From: Thermoanaerobaculia bacterium | GTDB taxonomy: Bacteria; Acidobacteriota; Thermoanaerobaculia; UBA5066; Gp7-AA6 | Direction: 5' to 3' | DNA length: 27,828 nucleotides | NCBI GenBank assembly: GCA_036518075.1 | Contig: DATDNV010000478.1 | Location: 1 to 27,828, forward strand | In this document: positions 7,205-13,792 of the stretch, in pieces | Layout of the letters: each line of letters starts with the position of its first letter | Numbering within the stretch: the first letter of the stretch is position 1 | Notes under the pieces: model-generated | Told to the model about the DNA's origin: nothing | What the model saw: only the letters and a program-made list of their open reading frames with translations | Databases searched by the model: none | Made by a program: the position numbers and the translations under genes

Positions 7205-7526
7205 CCATCCGCTCTCAGCTTTCAGCCAGAGTTCGTGACCTGTCAGGCGGTTCGTTCTCTCTGGATTTGGGCCCGAGCGCGCCAACATTCCGAGAAGCTC
7301 GGTCTCTTCCAAATGTCATTCCGAGGAGCGAAGCGACGAGGAAACATCTGAACCGGCCCGCTGCGCGGGCCAATTAACTTTTCTGACCGGTGGCCCCTGC
7401 GGGAGCGTCCTCGGCTTTGGTATGGAAGATTTCTGGCCGCCTGGTCGCGGAGCGACCGCCGCGGCCCGTTCCCTCGCTTCGCTCGGGATGACAGCGGGAG
7501 AGCTGCGAGCGGATGGCTGAAAGCTA
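7203..7526. repeat. Outer 18-bp inverted repeat plus heptamer units bounding the convergent intergenic region
   Basis: agccatccgctctcagct (7203-7220) versus the reverse complement of 7501-7518, agccatccgctcgcagct (17/18); flanked by tttcagc and gctgaaagc units. Confidence 0.75.
7315..7492. mobile_element. Non-coding palindromic miniature element (REP/MITE-like, GTCAT...ATGAC ends), copy 1
   Basis: Ends gtcattccgaggagcgaagcgacgaggaa (7315-7343) and tccctcgcttcgctcgggatgac (7470-7492) match the ends of the copy at 18159-18254 at 28/29 and 23/23 in reverse orientation. Confidence 0.75.
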
Positions 7527-8900
7527 GGGCTCTCGGATCTCTAAACGCTTGATGATCTCGTGCAGCGTCGTCGGCTTGAGCTTCAGGAGCTCCGCGGCGC
7601 GTTTTTGGACTCCACCGGTCCGACGCAGCGCGGTGCGCACGAGCCGGCGCTCGTAGTCCTCGATCAGGTCCTTGTAGGTCGAGCCGTTCTCGGGCAGCCG
7701 AACCGGCAGGTCCGCGCGATCCGGCTCGAGGACGGTGTCGGGCAGGAGGTCCAGCGGAATCTGGCCGCCGGGACACAGGACGACGGCCCGTTCGATCGCG
7801 TTCTCGAGCTCGCGCACGTTTCCGGGCCAGTCGTAGTCGATCAGGGCGCGCAGCGCGTCCGGGTGCAAGCCCGAAATCGATTTGTTGTTCTCCGAGGCGT
7901 ACACGCGCACGAAATGGTCCGCCAGGAGCGGAATGTCCTCGCGCCGTTCACGCAGCGGCGGTATCGAGATGGTGATGACGCAGAGGCGATAGTAGAGGTC
8001 GTCGCGGAAGCGCCCTTCGGCGACCATCTTCTTCAAGTCGACGTTGGTGGCGGCGATGATGCGCACGTCGACCTTCTGCGTGTCGACGGAGCCGACCCGC
8101 ATGAACTCCCGCTCCTGGATGACGCGCAGGAGCTTGGCCTGTGTGTCGAGACCGATCGTTCCGATCTCGTCGAAGAAGATCGAGCCGCCGTCGGCGACCT
8201 CGAACAGGCCTTTCTTGTTCGCGACCGCGCCGGTAAACGCGCCGCGGACGTGGCCGAACAGATTGGATTCGAGCAGATCGGTCGGCATCGAGCCGGAATT
8301 CACGGTCACGAACGGCGCGCCGGACCGCGGCGAGTGGGTGTGGATCGCGCGGGCGACGAGCTCCTTGCCCGTGCCGCTCTCGCCCTCCACGAGAATCGTG
8401 GACCGGGAAGGGCCGGCGAGCCGTACGAGCTCGAAGACGCGCCGCATCCCCTCCGATTTGCCGACGATGCGCCCGAGGCCGTACCGGTTGGAGAGCTCCT
8501 GCCGCAGGCGGCGGTTCTCCTGAGTCAGGCGGCGTCTCTCGGCCCCCTTCTCGACGGTGATCAGAACTTCCTGGTTCTGGAACGGCTTGGGGATGTAGTG
8601 GAAGGCGCCGTCACGCATCGCTTCGATCGCGCCCTCGATGGAGGAGTAGGCCGTCACGATCACGACGACCGCGTCGGGATCGCGGCGCCGAATTTCGCGA
8701 AGCACGTCGAGCCCGGGCCGGTCGGGAAGCATCAGGTCGAGAAGCACGACATCGAAGGGTTCGGCCTCGAACGCGGAAAGGGCTTCGGCCGCGTCCCCGG
8801 CCGAAGTGACTTCGTAGCCCTCCCGGCGCAGAAGGGTATGGAGGACGTCGCGAATGACCTCTTCGTCGTCGACGATGAGGATGCGCAGCGCGTCGGTCAT
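7524..8900 (-). CDS. sigma54-dependent response regulator (NtrC family: REC-AAA+-HTH)
   Basis: Start MTDALRILIVDDE at 8900 overlaps the kinase stop (ATGA). Contains LLDLMLP (phospho-Asp), GESGTGKELVA, GAFTGA, WPGNVRELEN and a C-terminal Fis-type HTH. Confidence 0.95.
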   Translation of the reverse strand: MTDALRILIVDDEEVIRDVLHTLLRREGYEVTSAGDAAEALSAFEAEPFDVVLLDLMLPDRPGLDVLREIRRRDPDAVVVIVTAYSSIEGAIEAMRDGAFHYIPKPFQNQEVLITVEKGAERRRLTQENRRLRQELSNRYGLGRIVGKSEGMRRVFELVRLAGPSRSTILVEGESGTGKELVARAIHTHSPRSGAPFVTVNSGSMPTDLLESNLFGHVRGAFTGAVANKKGLFEVADGGSIFFDEIGTIGLDTQAKLLRVIQEREFMRVGSVDTQKVDVRIIAATNVDLKKMVAEGRFRDDLYYRLCVITISIPPLRERREDIPLLADHFVRVYASENNKSISGLHPDALRALIDYDWPGNVRELENAIERAVVLCPGGQIPLDLLPDTVLEPDRADLPVRLPENGSTYKDLIEDYERRLVRTALRRTGGVQKRAAELLKLKPTTLHEIIKRLEIREP

Positions 8901-11659
8901 GACACCCGTGTCGCGAGCGGCAGCGTAACCCACGCCTCGGCCCCTCCTCCTGACCTTGGGCGGAGCCCGATCTCGCCGCCGTGCCGTTTCACGATGTCCC
9001 GCGAGATGGCGAGGCCCAGTCCGGTTCCGCCCGACTTCTTGTTCGTATAGAACGGCTCGAAGAGCCGTTCGGCGCCGCCCTCGGGCAATCCGGGCCCTCG
9101 GTCGGAGATCGTGACGCACACCGAGACGCCTTCGCGTGAGAGTCGGCACTCCACTTCGCCGTCTTCGGCCGAAACGTCTCTGGCATTGGTGAAGAGGTTG
9201 ACGAACACCTGCTCGAGCTCCCGCGGGTCGCCGTCGACCCAGCTCGGCTCGCCGTGGTCCGCGATGTCGAGCGTCAGCCGGCGCCGCCCCATCGTCGTCT
9301 CGACCGACTCCGCGGCGTTGGTCACGACCGCGCGCAGGTCGGCGCGAACCTTCGCGGCCGGCCGCGGTCTTGCAAACTCGAGCAGATTGTTGACGAGGTG
9401 GGCCGCGCGGAAGGTCTGACGCTCCATCTTCTTCAGGATCGAATACCGGGGATCTCCCGGCGCCGTGTCGGCGAGGAGCATCTGCGCGTAGGAGGAAAGC
9501 CCCGCGATCGGGGTATTGACCTCGTGGGCGACTCCCGCCGCCAGTACACCCAGCGACGCGAGGCGTTCCCGCTCCGCCAGGGCGCGCTCGGCGCGCATTT
9601 GATCAGTGACGTCGTCGACCAGGATGACCCGCCGGTCGGGCTGTCCGTGAAAGGGTGAAACCGAGATGCGGATGTCGCGCGTTTGCCCGCCCGCGCCGGT
9701 GAACTGAGCCTCGATGTTCTGTTCCGGAGCATCGGGGGTATCGGCGGGCAGCTCGACGGAGGGAAGGATCTCGGAGAAGACGCGGCCGACGAGGTCGCCC
9801 TCGGGCCGTCCGACGAGCGCCGAGAACGCGGGATTGGCGGAATGCACGCGCCCGTCGCCGTCGAGGACCACGATGCCGGAGGAGGAGGAGCGAATCACGC
9901 TCTCCTGGTACTGCTGCAGCGTGCGGATCTCCTCGAGCCGCTCCGCCAGCGCTCCATAGAGCCGCGCGTTCTCGTAAGCGAGTCCCGCTTGCGCCATCAA
10001 TGCCGCCAGCAACGCCTCGTCCTCCGTCGAAAGAGGAACGCGTCCGTCCTTGTGCCCGATTCCCAGGGCTCCCACGAGGCCGCCCGCGCACCGCATCGCG
10101 AAGAACGTTCGAAAACCGGCCGTGTGCAGCGCGATCGCGCCGCGCGGCTCGCTCTCACCGAACGCCGATCCACGAAGGCGCCAGACCTCGGCGTTCTCGA
10201 GACGCTCCGCGAGAAACTCCGCTTCGGGCCCGCCTTCGTGAAGGAGGAACAGGTGGCAGGGCACGACATGGAGCCCGTCTTCGACGCGCTGAATCACGGC
10301 CGCCACGACCTCGCTCTGCGGACGCGGCGTCGAGAAGTCCCGTGCGAAGTCGAGCAAGGCTCTGCGGGCGCGGTAGGTCTCGTGGTACTGAATTTTCTCG
10401 AGCACGTCGGTGATCCGCTTCTTCATCGGGACCAGAAGCGACGCGAGAATCAGCCCGGACCCGAACGCCACGACGTTCTTGCCCGCGCCGGCCATCCCCT
10501 CGAGAGTGCGGTCGAGCAACGCGTTCAACAGGACAAAGGCCATCCCGCAAAGAAGGACAGCAGCCGTCGTGGCGAGCGCCTCCCGCACGAAAACCTCGAC
10601 GTCCCAGAGACGCCACTTGAGGATTGCGTAGGAGAACGCGAGCGGAATCAGAACGAGAGGAATGACCGCGGCCTTGGAGAGCCACGGGGTCGCGACTCCC
10701 AGAGCCTCGGGAATCACCGAGAGCACGAGGAAGGGGGAGAGCCCCACCACGACTCCCAGCCCGATCCAGCGAACCTGTTTCTCGGCTTCCGCTTCGGAGC
10801 GGCGGTGGCGCAGGAGAGCGACGAGCCGCAGGACGACGGCGGCGCCGTAGAGCGCGAAAAGGAGGTGCCAGAGCCGATTGGCGGCGACGAACGTGCGCGC
10901 CGGATCGAGACTCCGAACGACGAACGGCGCCTCCTGGTACACGAAGTAGGCGAGGCCGGGAAGATAGAGGAGCGGGAGCCAGCGCGCGCGCACGATCGGC
11001 CGGGGAAACACGAGGAAGAAGTGAAGGAGAAGCGGCGGCAGCAGCGCGCGATAGAAGTCCTCCGTAATCCAGAAAGCCTTCCAGATCGAGTCGTGCGTTC
11101 CCGCGCGCGTGAGCACGTCGATCGCAAACGACGCGAGACAGATTCCCCAGAAGACGCGCGCCGCCGGCGCGCGATCGCGCGCGACCGTGAAGAGGCCGAT
11201 CGAAAGATAGAGGAGACCGACGAACGCGAGGAAGAGGTACTTCCAGTCGATCGAGAGCGGAGGTTTGTTGAGCTGGACCGGGACGATTTCGGCGCCGCCT
11301 TTCTCGACGGCGAGAACGTGCGGGAAGGGAGCGCGGGCGAGAGCTCGCTGCGGCTCGGGTACCGATCCCGCGACCTGTCCGTCCACGGTAATGATCCGAT
11401 CGCCCGGGACCAGTCCGGCGGCCTCGGCGGCGCTGTCGGGCTCGACCGAATCGACGACGAGCGCGCCCTTGACCCGCACGAAGGCGAAGCCGGGCCTTTC
11501 GAACGACTCGACCTTTCGGACAAAGGAGAGAAACGCCAATCCCATCGTCGCCCCCGCGACGAGGACCGCGAGCCCGATCAGTAATCTGGATAGGGAACGG
11601 GGCACGGCACCGGATTCAGCAATCCGAATGCCATCGGAAGAACGTAGTTTCCGAGGCAC
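8897..11659 (-). CDS. Membrane sensor histidine kinase: TM-PDZ-multiple TM-GAF-like-PAS-HisKA-HATPase
   Basis: PDZ signature VDSVEPDSAAEAAGLVPGDRIITVDG; many hydrophobic helices; H-box AHEVNTP; N-box VNLFTNARD; FEPFYT; GTGLGL. The start is either GTG 11659 or GTG 11605. Confidence 0.92.
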   Translation of the reverse strand: MPRKLRSSDGIRIAESGAVPRSLSRLLIGLAVLVAGATMGLAFLSFVRKVESFERPGFAFVRVKGALVVDSVEPDSAAEAAGLVPGDRIITVDGQVAGSVPEPQRALARAPFPHVLAVEKGGAEIVPVQLNKPPLSIDWKYLFLAFVGLLYLSIGLFTVARDRAPAARVFWGICLASFAIDVLTRAGTHDSIWKAFWITEDFYRALLPPLLLHFFLVFPRPIVRARWLPLLYLPGLAYFVYQEAPFVVRSLDPARTFVAANRLWHLLFALYGAAVVLRLVALLRHRRSEAEAEKQVRWIGLGVVVGLSPFLVLSVIPEALGVATPWLSKAAVIPLVLIPLAFSYAILKWRLWDVEVFVREALATTAAVLLCGMAFVLLNALLDRTLEGMAGAGKNVVAFGSGLILASLLVPMKKRITDVLEKIQYHETYRARRALLDFARDFSTPRPQSEVVAAVIQRVEDGLHVVPCHLFLLHEGGPEAEFLAERLENAEVWRLRGSAFGESEPRGAIALHTAGFRTFFAMRCAGGLVGALGIGHKDGRVPLSTEDEALLAALMAQAGLAYENARLYGALAERLEEIRTLQQYQESVIRSSSSGIVVLDGDGRVHSANPAFSALVGRPEGDLVGRVFSEILPSVELPADTPDAPEQNIEAQFTGAGGQTRDIRISVSPFHGQPDRRVILVDDVTDQMRAERALAERERLASLGVLAAGVAHEVNTPIAGLSSYAQMLLADTAPGDPRYSILKKMERQTFRAAHLVNNLLEFARPRPAAKVRADLRAVVTNAAESVETTMGRRRLTLDIADHGEPSWVDGDPRELEQVFVNLFTNARDVSAEDGEVECRLSREGVSVCVTISDRGPGLPEGGAERLFEPFYTNKKSGGTGLGLAISRDIVKRHGGEIGLRPRSGGGAEAWVTLPLATRVS
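11618..11633 (-). promoter_or_regulatory. Candidate sigma54 -24/-12 promoter
   Basis: Minus strand TGGCAT-TCGGA-TTGCT gives exact GG-N10-GC spacing and matches the consensus TGGCAC-N5-TTGCW with one mismatch. Confidence 0.55.
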
Positions 11660-11715
11660 AAGTCCATATTTTACGGCACTTAGACATTAGTCCCCGTCTA
11701 TGAGAGGACACCTTC

Positions 11716-11752
11716 AATCCAAACTGTTGGATTCTATTGGACTGTATTTGGA
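11716..11752. promoter_or_regulatory. Candidate activator-binding (enhancer-like) sites: palindrome plus phased TTGGA boxes
   Basis: AATCCAA-actg-TTGGATT palindrome (11716-11733); TTGGA at 11727, 11737 and 11748 (10-11 bp period). Confidence 0.45.
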
Positions 11753-11890
11753 TGCGACAGCCGGACCTGTGGATCGGAATCGAGAAATTTCTAGACGAGC
11801 GCTGAGCTGCTCTTAGGGCTCCCGTTTAGAAAAATTAATTGGCCGCGAAGCAGCCGGTGCAGACGTTCGCGAGCGGCCGGTGCAGATCTC

Positions 11891-13792
11891 TCAGAACGAG
11901 ATCGCGAGGCCTCCGAGCAGCCGCTTGGTTGCCTGAGAGTCGTCCCGCTCGCCCGTCGCCGTGCTACGCGCGGATTCGAGGGCCATGAGCAATCGCCAGG
12001 CCGATCCGAAGGGAGAGAGGCCCACGACCGACAGATCCTGGGAGACCGAGATCGCCACCTTGGACGAGTCGTTGGCCTGAGGTGCAGCGAGAGTCTCCAG
12101 CGTCTGCCGGGCGCCGCGGACGAGCACGGCCACGCCGGTGTGAGTCGGGATGATTTCGACGGAAGCGCGCGCGGACCAGTAGTGTCCGGAGTTGCTCGTG
12201 ATTCCATATGCGGCGGCCGAGGGCGCCGCCACTTCGCTGCCGATCGTTCCATACATCGCGTTGACCGTGCCGGAGAGCGAGTTCGAAAGCTTGTGGGTCG
12301 CGCTCGCGCGGTACTGGCGGACCATGTTTCCGTCGAAGAAGTAAACGCTGTCGAAATCGGTCAGGAAGTCTCCTTCGAAGAAGGCGCGCACCGACTCTCC
12401 GACGCGCCGGCTGGAGACCTCCACCAGGAAAGCGCTTCCGTCGTCGCCGCTGCGCTGAAGGCCGACCGCAAACTCTTTCGTCGCGGTCGCGTCGCTGCGA
12501 TCGTCGATCGAAAGTACCAGCGGCATCGTCGTCCCGCCGCCGATCCCCGACTCCTTGGCGCGCCAGAGACCCTTGACGAACACGGCGGTCTGGTTCCCGA
12601 CGTCGTAGCGGACCGTGGCCATCGGCGCGAGGCCATAGCCTCCGGACAGGTACCGCGCGACGACGCCTCCCTCCACCTGGGCGTGGGAGGAGATCTTGGT
12701 CGAGGCCGCCGCCGAGAGGTCCGCGTCCGGCGCCGATACGAGGAACGTTCCGTCCGTGCTCACACCGGATGGGCCGGTCGTTCCTTCCCGGTGGCGATAG
12801 GTCATGGACACCGACACGCCGGGCGAGTCGGTCGCCGGCCGCGCATAGTTGGCGCGGACCTCCCACGTTCGCGAGGCAATCGGCGAGATGCTTGAGGGTC
12901 CCGTCGCGGTGGCGCGGTAAAGATTGGTCTCCTCCACGTACCGCGCGGCCACGGATTCGACCGTGCCTTCTTCCACGCCGCGACTCCAGCTCACGCCGTG
13001 CGTCTGGAGGCTCGCTGGACCGTCGTCATGGAACGACAGCGAGTTGCGCCGCGTCTGCAGGCTCAGATGATCGAGGGGCGACGTCGCGACGTCCAGGGCC
13101 ACTCCCGCGGCATTGCCGGTCGTCGCCGACAGGTCCGCGGGCGCGTTGCTGTGATCGGCCACCGCGGAGTAGTCGCCGTGCAGCGCATAGCGCCATCCGT
13201 TGGGAAGACCGCCGGTCAATCCCACGGCCGTCCGCGCGAGCGAGCTCTCGTTGGCGGCGAGATCCGAGGCGGCGCTGACCTGTCCGCCCACAGTCGTGCC
13301 CACCGGCAGTCGATTGTTTGCCGTCTTGGCGGGAGCTTCGGCCTCGAACGCGATTTCCCTGAGGACGTCGACCGGGAGCTGATCGCGAAGCTCCCAGAGG
13401 TTGTCGGTGACCGGCCGCTGTTTCGCTTCGGGTCCGAGAGACGCCAGCTCGATGTGAACGGCGCTCAGACGCTGCGGGTCGGCCTGATGCCAGACCCTCT
13501 GGAGAGCGGGTCGATACCCCTTCTTGATCGCGATCAGGTCGTAAACCCCGACCGGGGCCGACACCACCACGAACGTGCCGTCCGGCGCGGTGTGGGAGCG
13601 GGTCAGCGTCGACTCCTGGAGGTTGTAGAAAACGACCAGCGCGTCGGCAATCGGACGCTCCATGTGGCTGACGACTCCCGAGATCGGAGGAGCGGCGAGC
13701 GGGAGAGGCGGAGGCGGCGGGGAGGCGCACAGAATGCCGCCCGATCCGAGCGTGAGAGCCAATAGGGAAAGCAGCGGCCTGCGCCGTCTCAT
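11891..13792 (-). CDS. Predicted outer-membrane protein: signal peptide, carboxypeptidase-regulatory-like (prealbumin-fold) domain, then beta-barrel
   Basis: Likely start MRRRRPLLSLLAL at 13792. ISGVVSHMERPIADALVVF...TAPDGTF...GVYDLIAIKKGY fits the CarboxypepD_reg pattern. Amphipathic strands follow and the protein ends in Phe (LAISF). Confidence 0.7.
   Translation of the reverse strand: MRRRRPLLSLLALTLGSGGILCASPPPPPLPLAAPPISGVVSHMERPIADALVVFYNLQESTLTRSHTAPDGTFVVVSAPVGVYDLIAIKKGYRPALQRVWHQADPQRLSAVHIELASLGPEAKQRPVTDNLWELRDQLPVDVLREIAFEAEAPAKTANNRLPVGTTVGGQVSAASDLAANESSLARTAVGLTGGLPNGWRYALHGDYSAVADHSNAPADLSATTGNAAGVALDVATSPLDHLSLQTRRNSLSFHDDGPASLQTHGVSWSRGVEEGTVESVAARYVEETNLYRATATGPSSISPIASRTWEVRANYARPATDSPGVSVSMTYRHREGTTGPSGVSTDGTFLVSAPDADLSAAASTKISSHAQVEGGVVARYLSGGYGLAPMATVRYDVGNQTAVFVKGLWRAKESGIGGGTTMPLVLSIDDRSDATATKEFAVGLQRSGDDGSAFLVEVSSRRVGESVRAFFEGDFLTDFDSVYFFDGNMVRQYRASATHKLSNSLSGTVNAMYGTIGSEVAAPSAAAYGITSNSGHYWSARASVEIIPTHTGVAVLVRGARQTLETLAAPQANDSSKVAISVSQDLSVVGLSPFGSAWRLLMALESARSTATGERDDSQATKRLLGGLAISF

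What the first reader, a model, noticed from the sequence alone, without database searches (positions are those of the whole stretch)
7524..11752. PDZ-sensor kinase/sigma54 activator operon with its own sigma54 promoter and phased enhancer-like boxes (possible autoregulatory circuit)
Seen: TGGCAT-N5-TTGCT at 11633-11618 predicts +1 near 11607, two bases before GTG 11605. A TAAAAT box lies 8 nt before the alternative GTG 11659. A palindrome and three phased TTGGA boxes lie about 110-145 bp upstream of the predicted +1. The regulator has an intact GAFTGA. Established: sigma54 promoters need an AAA+ activator usually bound about 80-150 bp upstream. Inference: basal sigma70 transcription plus a sigma54 positive-feedback promoter could make two N-terminal kinase isoforms, and TTGGA/TCCAA would be the regulator's site.
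Basis: partly seen in the sequence, partly recalled or inferred. Interest (0 to 1): 0.65.

Follow-up and report, generated by a model that had tools for sequence, protein, structure and literature searches.

The report
Enhancer-driven sigma-54 promoter abutting kinase start

Summary

**Promoter.** TGGCAT-N5-TTGCT (11633-11618, minus strand) is a real, selected sigma-54 promoter.
- It is found in 55 of 55 distinct orthologous upstream regions of class Thermoanaerobaculia.
- Pairwise identity is 0.90 across the promoter and 0.27 in the flanks.

**Activator site.** The TCCAA/TTGGA boxes (11753-11716) belong to a roughly 35-bp element at a fixed distance from the promoter in 53 of 55 regions. The same dyad plus a sigma-54 promoter recurs in two places:
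- before TonB-dependent-receptor-like outer-membrane protein genes;
- before this kinase gene across phylum Acidobacteriota.

Positive autoregulation by the operon's own NtrC-type regulator is therefore the best-supported reading, though it is inferred, not shown.

**What is not supported.** The sigma-70 promoter and the two-isoform idea fail.
- GTG 11659 is not conserved, and several orthologues carry in-frame stops there.
- The promoter-to-start distance varies out of frame.
- The TAAAAT lies inside a third conserved block, in the position where an IHF site would sit.

**The unexpected part.** In three families of this order an ATG or GTG follows TTGCT by 9-15 nt, usually 12, with C at -1. 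This predicts a leaderless or nearly leaderless sigma-54 transcript. Distant orthologues and the receptor-gene targets have normal leaders.

Earlier notes of this scan report the same layout on other DNA. No transcription start was mapped here.

The parts
11618..11633 (-). Sigma-54 (-24/-12) promoter TGGCATtcggaTTGCT
   Evidence: It is read directly. It is the only match in the window. It is present in 55/55 distinct orthologous upstream regions, with TGGCA and TTGCT invariant. Pairwise identity is 0.90 against 0.27 in the flanks. It is also present in 9 further f2-family orthologues.
11603..11608 (-). Predicted transcription start zone (11608-11605) and the kinase start codon GTG 11605-11603
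   Evidence: In 55/55 orthologues an in-frame ATG or GTG, never TTG, lies 9-15 nt after TTGCT. The spacing is 12 nt in 28 of them. C is at -1 in 41/55. The start site itself was not mapped.
11716..11753 (-). Upstream activator site: TCCAA x3 plus TTGGA, with proximal dyad AATCCAA-cagt-TTGGATT (11733-11716)
   Evidence: An OOPS motif search places this element 111-113 nt upstream of TGGCA in 53/55 orthologues. Its consensus is ..cCaaAA.AaTtTTGgA..gcATcCAAA...TTGGATT. The same dyad lies 97-120 nt upstream of sigma-54 promoters of TonB-receptor-like genes and upstream of distant orthologues.
11659..11686 (-).
   Evidence: It starts 53 nt upstream of TGGCA in 49/55 orthologues and shows as a footprint. 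On the opposite strand, 22/55 match the IHF core CAR-N4-TTR. An IHF-beta-like gene is present in the genome. Which protein binds it is unknown.
8897..11605 (-). Sensor histidine kinase, 902 aa: TM1, periplasmic PDZ, multi-TM block, PAS, HisKA, HATPase_c
   Evidence: Domains come from Pfam and the translation. Orthologues at 61-72% identity occur in the family and at 37-52% in the order. The sensor half is found in 138/201 Acidobacteriota genomes.
7524..8900 (-). NtrC-family response regulator, 458 aa: receiver, sigma-54 AAA+ domain with GAFTGA, HTH_8; ATGA overlap with the kinase stop
   Evidence: Domains come from Pfam and the sequence. The best NCBIfam matches are AtoC, NtrC and ZraR, all below their cut-offs. 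The recognition helix KPTTLHEIIKRL is invariant in orthologues and unique among this genome's activators.
11831..11855 (-). Terminator-like hairpin plus T-run ending the upstream gene, marking the 5' limit of the control region
   Evidence: Found by the terminator scan and read directly.
11891..13792 (-). Syntenic upstream gene: a 633-aa secreted protein ending ...LAISF (context only, not shown to be part of the circuit)
   Evidence: It has a weak CarboxypepD_reg match and a signal-peptide-like N-terminus. A homologue is found directly upstream of the kinase in 50/55 loci.

Best explanation
**Architecture.** The kinase-regulator operon (11605-7524, minus strand) is transcribed from a classical enhancer-dependent sigma-54 promoter at 11633-11618.

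**Mechanism (inferred).**
- The phosphorylated NtrC-type regulator encoded by the second gene binds two sites about 21 bp apart in the TCCAA/TTGGA element. These sites are centred roughly 90 and 112 nt upstream of the TGGCA.
- The DNA between them and the promoter is probably bent at a third conserved block (11686-11659), possibly by an IHF-type protein.
- The regulator's AAA+ ring then remodels the closed sigma-54 complex.
- The result is positive autoregulation.
- The same regulator also appears to activate sigma-54 promoters of TonB-dependent-receptor-like outer-membrane protein genes. One is on contig C620 of this genome.

**The leader.** The start codon lies 12 nt after TTGCT, so transcription should begin at, or 1-3 nt before, the G of GTG 11605. 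The message would then have no Shine-Dalgarno sequence and would be translated as a leaderless or nearly leaderless mRNA. The regulator would be translated by coupling through the ATGA overlap.

**Shown versus inferred.** The sequence elements, their conservation, their fixed geometry and their recurrence at other genes are shown. Regulator binding, sigma-54 dependence, the exact start site and the mode of translation are inferred.
For: **The machinery is present.** The genome has rpoN and about 11 sigma-54 activators. The regulator has receiver, AAA+ with GAFTGA, and HTH_8 domains.

**Promoter conservation.** It is found in 55/55 orthologues, plus 9 f2-family loci at 37-39% protein identity. 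Flanks are at random-level identity.

**Activator site.** It lies 111-113 nt from TGGCA in 53/55.

**Recurrence of dyad plus promoter.**
- The pattern gives 44 matches in 29 of 41 related genomes and 0 in the reversed control.
- Nearly all classified matches lie before the kinase operon or before TonB-receptor-like genes (Pfam). Three lie before other genes.
- Half-site positions agree between the two classes: about 119 and 98 nt from TGGCA.
- Distant orthologues from other classes of the phylum keep TGGYAY-N5-TTGCW with TYCAA-N4-TTGGA dyads upstream.

**Regulator specificity.** Its recognition helix is invariant across orthologues and differs from every other activator in this genome.

**Start codon and leader.**
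- An in-frame ATG or GTG lies 9-15 nt after TTGCT in 55/55, with no TTG.
- C is at -1 in 41/55, which fits the pyrimidine(-1)/purine(+1) start-site rule.
- In-frame stops lie just upstream of the start in 6 orthologues.
- Only 2 of 55 spacers hold an SD-like 4-mer.

**Literature.**
- Leaderless genes were predicted at 9.7-19.4% in three Acidobacteria (PMC3160421).
- A 5' ATG or GTG suffices for leaderless initiation in mycobacteria (PMC4633059).
Against: - There are no transcript or binding data. The organism is an uncultured MAG.
- With C 11619 at exactly -12, +1 is 11607, which leaves a 2-nt leader. In Caulobacter each extra 5' nucleotide roughly halves leaderless translation, and GUG is a weaker start than AUG (PMC8459731).
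- The predicted 5' end pairs the start codon in the minimum-energy fold, though this is no more stable than shuffled sequences (z = -1.2).
- The regulator's helix and the site are both invariant, so no covariation links them. Another of the roughly 11 activators could bind the boxes.
- One f2 orthologue (G031) has GGAGGAGG between the -12 element and its ATG. This hints at a leadered transcript from an upstream promoter in that genome.
- A source of basal expression, needed to prime positive feedback, was not identified.
Confidence: 0.7

Rival explanations
1. The promoter and enhancer are real, but the TCCAA/TTGGA boxes are bound by a different sigma-54 activator. The operon would then be the target of a cascade rather than autoregulated.
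For: The genome encodes about 11 sigma-54 activators. No covariation or binding data tie the site to this regulator.
Against: The dyad-plus-promoter combination accompanies this particular operon in three families of the order and in distant classes of the phylum. The operon's regulator has an invariant recognition helix not shared by any other activator in the genome. No other activator gene is known to co-occur with it.
Confidence: 0.15
2. A sigma-70 promoter using TAAAAT (11673-11668) gives basal transcripts translated from GTG 11659. The sigma-54 promoter gives a shorter isoform from GTG 11605.
For: TAAAAT and an in-frame GTG 11659 exist in this sequence. Positive feedback needs some basal expression.
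Against: - The consensus scan finds no sigma-70-like site.
- The conserved positions of the block (AA-N4-CTG-N12-TT) do not fit TAnnnT.
- Upstream in-frame starts are absent or scattered in orthologues, and six have stops 6-12 nt before the conserved start.
- The promoter-to-start spacing takes values of 9-15 nt, which breaks the frame.
- The conserved N-terminus is a short basic stretch followed by a transmembrane helix, starting at the proximal codon.
Confidence: 0.04
3. The sigma-54 promoter is real, but the mRNA is not translated from its 5' end. The true start would be a downstream in-frame codon, for example ATG 11545 preceded by GGGGG, so that 11605-11546 is a 5' UTR.
For: A G-rich run lies about 6 nt before ATG 11545. 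Leaderless GUG initiation is inefficient in some bacteria.
Against: That ATG is not conserved. tblastn alignments of orthologues begin at residues 1-12. Starting at 11545 would delete the first transmembrane helix, which is needed to place the PDZ domain outside the membrane. The proximal ATG or GTG is present in 55/55.
Confidence: 0.06

Closest known systems
ZraS-ZraR (HydH-HydG) of E. coli, a two-component system whose sigma-54 activator drives its own operon
   Same: Both have a membrane sensor kinase and a receiver-AAA+-HTH_8 regulator in one operon. Both have a sigma-54 promoter with an upstream inverted-repeat activator site, giving positive autoregulation. Autoregulation of zraSR is as stated in PMC12316311. 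ZraR and ZraS are among the best NCBIfam matches.
   Different: Scores fall far below the equivalog cut-offs: ZraR 397 against 760, ZraS 132 against 479. The sensor here has a PDZ domain and a large multi-TM block. The other targets are TonB-receptor-like genes, not zraP. The start codon abuts the promoter.
NtrB-NtrC with glnAp2 and AtoS-AtoC, the textbook layout of enhancer, IHF site and -24/-12 promoter
   Same: Two activator sites lie on the same helical face about 100-140 bp upstream. A bend site lies between them and the promoter. The promoter follows the TGGCAC-N5-TTGCW consensus, and the activator carries GAFTGA. AtoC and NtrC are the top NCBIfam matches.
   Different: All matches are below cut-off (AtoC 478 against 714, NtrC 432 against 559). 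The DNA half-site TTGGAT is unrelated to the NtrC site. These model promoters have ordinary leaders with ribosome-binding sites.
Leaderless mRNAs of Actinobacteria, Deinococcus-Thermus and Caulobacter
   Same: The start codon coincides with the predicted 5' end. Only ATG or GTG is used, and there is no Shine-Dalgarno sequence (PMC4633059, PMC8459731, PMC12340547).
   Different: The described cases use sigma-70/sigma-A promoters with a -10 box next to the ORF. Here the promoter is of the activator-dependent sigma-54 class. Two full-text searches found no paper describing that combination.

Membership tests
Sigma-54 (-24/-12) promoter | GG and GC doublets 10 bp apart within TGGCAC-N5-TTGCW | tested here: met
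   TGGCATtcggaTTGCT matches in 10 of 11 specified positions. TGGCA and TTGCT are invariant in 55/55 orthologues.
Sigma-54 (-24/-12) promoter | Sigma-54 and an enhancer-binding activator with GAFTGA are encoded in the genome | tested here: met
   The rpoN DNA-binding domain is on C556. There are 11 strong Sigma54_activat matches. GAFTGA is present in the operon's regulator.
Sigma-54 (-24/-12) promoter | Upstream activator site about 80-150 bp from the promoter | tested here: met
   A conserved dyad element lies 111-113 nt upstream of TGGCA in 53/55 orthologues. The pattern is specific against a reversed control, 44 matches to 0.
Sigma-54 (-24/-12) promoter | Transcription starts about 12 nt after the GC and depends on rpoN | not testable with these tools
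   No RNA data exist for this MAG. Only indirect support is available: C at -1 of the start codon in 41/55.
NtrC-family two-component response regulator | Receiver, sigma-54 AAA+ and Fis-type HTH domains, encoded next to a HisKA/HATPase kinase | tested here: met
   Pfam finds Response_reg, Sigma54_activat, AAA_lid_14 and HTH_8 in the regulator, and HisKA plus HATPase_c in the kinase.
Named equivalogs AtoSC, NtrBC, ZraSR | Score above NCBIfam's curated equivalog cut-off | tested here: not met
   Scores against cut-offs are AtoC 477.8/714, NtrC 431.9/558.6, ZraR 397.3/760, AtoS 225/646 and ZraS 131.9/479.
Positively autoregulated sigma-54 two-component operon | The operon's own regulator binds the site upstream of its own promoter | not testable with these tools
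   Only comparative evidence is available. The site accompanies the operon across the phylum. The recognition helix is invariant and unique in the genome.
Leaderless mRNA | No room for a Shine-Dalgarno sequence between the predicted +1 and an ATG/GTG start | tested here: met
   The start codon lies 9-15 nt after TTGCT in 55/55 and 12-14 nt in 9/9 f2 loci. There are 42 GTG, 13 ATG and 0 TTG. An SD-like 4-mer occurs in 2/55 spacers.
Leaderless mRNA | The mapped 5' end coincides with the start codon, and translation is 5'-end dependent | not testable with these tools
   No transcriptome or ribosome-profiling data are held for this lineage.

The most novel reading that the evidence does not exclude
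**Proposed system.** A phylum-wide Acidobacteriota signalling system would control TonB-dependent-receptor-like outer-membrane proteins through sigma-54. It consists of a kinase with a periplasmic PDZ domain and an NtrC-type regulator.

**Proposed change in one order.** In one order of Thermoanaerobaculia its autoregulatory promoter would have moved onto the start codon. An activator-dependent sigma-54 promoter would then produce a truly leaderless, mostly GUG-initiated mRNA.

**Proposed consequence.** Strong, switch-like transcription would be coupled to weak translation. This would limit the gain of the positive feedback loop.
Probability: 0.35. Interest if true: 0.65.

Novelty: new variant of a known kind. 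Interest (0 to 1): 0.5.

Why it matters
**What is ordinary.** Self-activating NtrC-type two-component systems are textbook biology.

**What is gained.** Three points are useful.
- The work gives a well-supported regulatory map for a kinase-regulator pair present in about two thirds of sampled Acidobacteriota genomes. The map comprises promoter, activator site, probable bend site, correct start codons and a first regulon of TonB-receptor-like genes. Almost no gene regulation has been studied experimentally in this phylum.
- It corrects the gene models. The kinase starts at 11605, not 11659, and the regulator at 8900, not 9149.
- It adds a deeply conserved case of a sigma-54 promoter abutting a start codon. 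I found no paper describing that combination. The case offers a natural contrast, because the same operon has leaders of about 60-100 nt in other classes, and the co-regulated receptor genes have Shine-Dalgarno leaders.

**What the contrast allows.** It makes testable whether sigma-54 holoenzyme can deliver translatable leaderless mRNAs, and why that layout would be selected.

Tried and rejected
- **Covariation between helix and half-site.** This was impossible, because both are essentially invariant.
- **Other sigma-54-like motifs abutting start codons in this genome.** Two were found. One is on C74, before a receiver plus PAS-kinase operon. The other is on C198, before a TolC-like/HlyD operon. 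The C74 operon has only one homologue among 30 relatives, and that one lacks the motif, so conservation could not be tested. C198 was not followed up.
- **A 359-aa ORF that seemed to abut a promoter in G038.** It is a wrong-frame artefact. The real gene starts about 85 nt downstream and has an SD sequence.
- **Sigma-70 promoter scan of 11500-12000.** No sites on either strand.
- **Rfam scan of 11450-11950.** Only one sub-threshold chance hit.
- **Fold of the predicted 5' end.** It is no different from shuffles, z = -1.2.
- **Strict E. coli IHF core.** It is matched in only 22/55 of the third block, so that assignment stays tentative.
- **Literature on leaderless transcripts with sigma54 or RpoN.** Transcription-start-mapping papers were found, but none links the two.
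Full report
**Setting**

- The window is a whole 27.8-kb contig (C478) of a 3.9-Mb metagenome-assembled genome with 65% G+C.
- Titles of the closest public records place it in Acidobacteriota, class Thermoanaerobaculia. All of these are uncultured MAGs.
- On the minus strand, a 902-aa histidine kinase runs from GTG 11605 to stop 8897. Its domains are TM helix, PDZ, a large multi-TM block, PAS, HisKA and HATPase_c.
- A 458-aa NtrC-family regulator follows it, from ATG 8900 to 7524. Its domains are receiver, sigma-54 AAA+ and HTH_8. Its start overlaps the kinase stop as ATGA.
- The 541-aa ORF starting at 9149 is an artefact of the open frame.
- A co-oriented gene for a 633-aa secreted protein ends at 11891. 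A terminator-like hairpin and T-run follow it at 11855-11831. The control region therefore spans about 11830-11606.

**The observation**

- The regulator has an intact GAFTGA, Walker A motif and receiver Asp55.
- The genome encodes sigma-54 and about 11 enhancer-binding activators.

**The promoter is real and under selection**

- I collected orthologous loci from 40 related genomes and from the public species-representative collection. This gave 55 distinct upstream regions.
- All 55 contain TGGCAY-N5-TTGCT just before the kinase gene. TGGCA and TTGCT are invariant, and the spacer varies.
- Mean pairwise identity is 0.90 across the 16-nt motif. It is 0.27, the random level, in neighbouring stretches.
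- Nine further orthologues from a third family have the same motif. Their protein identity is 37-39%. One has TTGCG and one TTGCC.
- Two of the 55 loci (L028, L029) and one receptor-gene example (L127) come from genomes flagged as unpublished (G030, G009, G011). Removing them changes no conclusion.

**Start codon and leader**

- In all 55 regions an in-frame ATG or GTG lies 9-15 nt after TTGCT. The spacing is 12 nt in 28, 11 nt in 8, 13 nt in 8 and 15 nt in 7.
- There are 42 GTG, 13 ATG and no TTG.
- The f2 family has ATG at 12 nt in 6 of 9 loci and GTG at 12 nt in one more. The other two have a start at 13 or 14 nt.
- The spacing varies by non-multiples of three. Six orthologues have an in-frame stop 6-12 nt before this codon. 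The promoter therefore cannot be coding, and no N-terminal extension is conserved.
- Alignments of the protein begin at residues 1-12. The conserved N-terminus is a short basic stretch followed by the first transmembrane helix.
- By definition the GC of a sigma-54 promoter lies at -12. That places +1 at about 11607, with 11608-11605 plausible.
- The nucleotide before the start codon is C in 41 of 55, and a pyrimidine in 45 of 55. This is what is expected if the purine of the start codon is itself +1.
- Only 2 of 55 spacers contain an SD-like tetramer.
- The message should therefore be leaderless or carry a leader of at most a few nucleotides.
- This is plausible for the phylum. Between 9.7% and 19.4% of genes were predicted to be leaderless in three Acidobacteria (PMC3160421). 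In mycobacteria a 5' ATG or GTG is necessary and sufficient for leaderless initiation (PMC4633059).
- In Caulobacter, however, GUG starts and each added 5' nucleotide reduce expression (PMC8459731). Expression may therefore be deliberately low.

**The upstream boxes**

- A motif search across the 55 regions finds a roughly 35-bp element whose start lies 111-113 nt upstream of TGGCA in 53 of them.
- Its consensus is ..cCaaAA.AaTtTTGgA..gcATcCAAA...TTGGATT.
- It has two parts about 21 bp apart, so both lie on the same face of the helix.
- In the window, the half-sites start 119, 108, 98 and 89 nt upstream of TGGCA.
- In this genome TCCAA-N4-TTGGA occurs only twice.

**A regulon**

- A position-weight scan of the genome found a second instance on contig C620. 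Three TCCAA boxes lie 126, 115 and 95 nt upstream of TGGCAGattggTTGCT.
- A roughly 95-nt leader with GGGGGAGG follows, then a 1012-aa TonB-dependent-receptor-like protein. Its domains are CarboxypepD_reg, Plug and beta-barrel.
- Orthologues and paralogues of this gene in other genera carry TYCAA-N4-TTGGA 117-120 nt (or 97-98 nt) upstream of a sigma-54 promoter.
- The pattern TYCRR-N4-TTGRA, N80-110, GGCA-N6-TTGC gives 44 matches in 29 of 41 related genomes. Read backwards, it gives none.
- Nearly all matches I classified lie before the kinase operon or before a TonB-receptor-like gene.
- The exceptions are a phosphatase gene in one genome and a small secreted-protein gene in two.
- The receptor genes have leaders of 70-160 nt with GGAGG. 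The leaderless layout is therefore specific to the kinase operon.

**Depth of conservation**

- The sensor half of the kinase is found in 138 of 201 sampled Acidobacteriota genomes.
- Distant orthologues also have TGGYAY-N5-TTGCW preceded by TYCAA-N4-TTGGA dyads.
- In other classes the promoter starts about 80-120 nt before the projected start codon, leaving a leader of roughly 60-100 nt. In other families of the same class that distance is 31-115 nt.
- The self-associated enhancer and sigma-54 promoter are thus ancient in the phylum. The promoter abutting the start codon is a derived state of this order.

**Who binds the boxes**

- The operon's regulator has an invariant recognition helix, KPTTLHEIIKRL, across orthologues. 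It is unlike that of any other activator in this genome.
- The site follows the operon everywhere examined.
- Autoregulation is therefore the most economical reading.
- Because helix and site are both invariant, no covariation test is possible. Binding is inferred, not shown.

**The TAAAAT box and the two-isoform idea**

- Phylogenetic footprinting shows a third conserved block that starts 53 nt upstream of TGGCA in 49 of 55 regions. Its consensus is AA-N4-CTG-N12-TT.
- The TAAAAT lies in its variable A/T-rich middle. The conserved positions do not fit a -10 hexamer.
- The block lies midway between enhancer and promoter, where IHF sites are found in many sigma-54 promoters.
- On the opposite strand it reads CAG-N4-TTA with an A/T tract 5' to it. 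This resembles the IHF core WATCAR-N4-TTR as I recall it. Only 22 of 55 match even the core.
- The genome encodes three HU/IHF-family proteins, one of which just reaches the IHF-beta cut-off.
- The block could instead be a weak third regulator site, since it resembles a degenerate CAA-N4-TTG dyad.
- No sigma-70-like promoter was found, and GTG 11659 is not conserved.
- How the loop is primed remains open. Terminator read-through from the syntenic upstream gene is one possibility; a homologue of that gene is found upstream in 50 of 55 loci.

**Comparison with known systems**

- The circuit works like ZraSR or NtrBC/AtoSC. It has a membrane kinase, a GAFTGA activator, two phased upstream sites, a probable bend site and a -24/-12 promoter.
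- It is not a member of those named families, because all NCBIfam equivalog scores are well below cut-off.
- Autoregulated sigma-54 two-component operons are known (PMC12316311). So are enhancer-to-promoter distances of about 100 nt (PMC4641369).
- Described leaderless mRNAs come from sigma-70-type promoters.
- I found no paper linking sigma-54 promoters to leaderless transcripts.
- Earlier notes of this scan report sigma-54 promoters abutting start codons in Myxococcota, Binatia, Bdellovibrio, Nitrospirota and another Acidobacterium. I treat these as leads and did not check them.

**Verdict**

It is rejected for the sigma-70 promoter and the isoform pair.
- The circuit is a new variant of a known kind.
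- Its most interesting feature is the conserved, lineage-specific fusion of a sigma-54 promoter to the start codon. This still needs a mapped transcription start.

Noticed in passing
G000 contig C620 (L111:1185-4453): A second probable target of the same regulator lies in this genome. Three TCCAA boxes and TGGCAGattggTTGCT are followed by a roughly 95-nt leader with GGGGGAGG. The gene encodes a 1012-aa TonB-dependent-receptor-like outer-membrane protein. The layout is conserved before related genes in many relatives.
   Followed up: yes
window 11611-11626 (-): A perfect inverted repeat, CGGATT-gctg-AATCCG, spans the -12 element. Its arms resemble the YCGGAT variant of the activator half-site. 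The f1 family conserves TCGGA..GAATC here. The f2 and f3 families instead carry a dyad TYCAA-N4-YCGGA immediately upstream of TGGCA. It may be a promoter-proximal regulator site, perhaps repressive.
   Followed up: partly
window 11891-13792 (-): This gene encodes a 633-aa secreted protein ending ...LLGGLAISF, with a weak CarboxypepD_reg match. A homologue is found directly upstream of the kinase in 50 of 55 loci. A C-terminal Phe is typical of outer-membrane beta-barrels, and PDZ domains such as that of DegS read such C-termini. This suggests what the kinase may sense.
   Followed up: partly
window 8897-11605 (-): The kinase's sensor half (TM1, PDZ, a roughly 280-aa multi-TM block with no Pfam match, and a GAF-like stretch) is found in 138 of 201 sampled Acidobacteriota genomes. 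It appears to be a phylum-wide, uncharacterised sensor family.
   Followed up: partly
G000 contigs C74:88-121 and C198:4673-4704: Two more sigma-54-like motifs in this genome end 14 nt before an ATG. TGGCACcggacTTGCC precedes a receiver plus PAS-kinase operon. TGGCAGggcgaTTGCC precedes a TolC-like/HlyD efflux operon. The first is not conserved in relatives. The second was not checked.
   Followed up: partly
L177 (G031:C23, f2 orthologue): This orthologue has GGAGGAGG between the -12 element (TTGCC) and its ATG, inside the region that should not be transcribed from the sigma-54 promoter. In this genome there may be an upstream promoter giving a leadered, SD-bearing transcript.
   Followed up: no
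L194-L197 (family f5, same class): Orthologues carry CGGCAC-N5-TTGAA, with A in place of the -12 C, 15-22 nt before the ATG. This is either a non-canonical sigma-54 -12 element or a decayed promoter.
   Followed up: no
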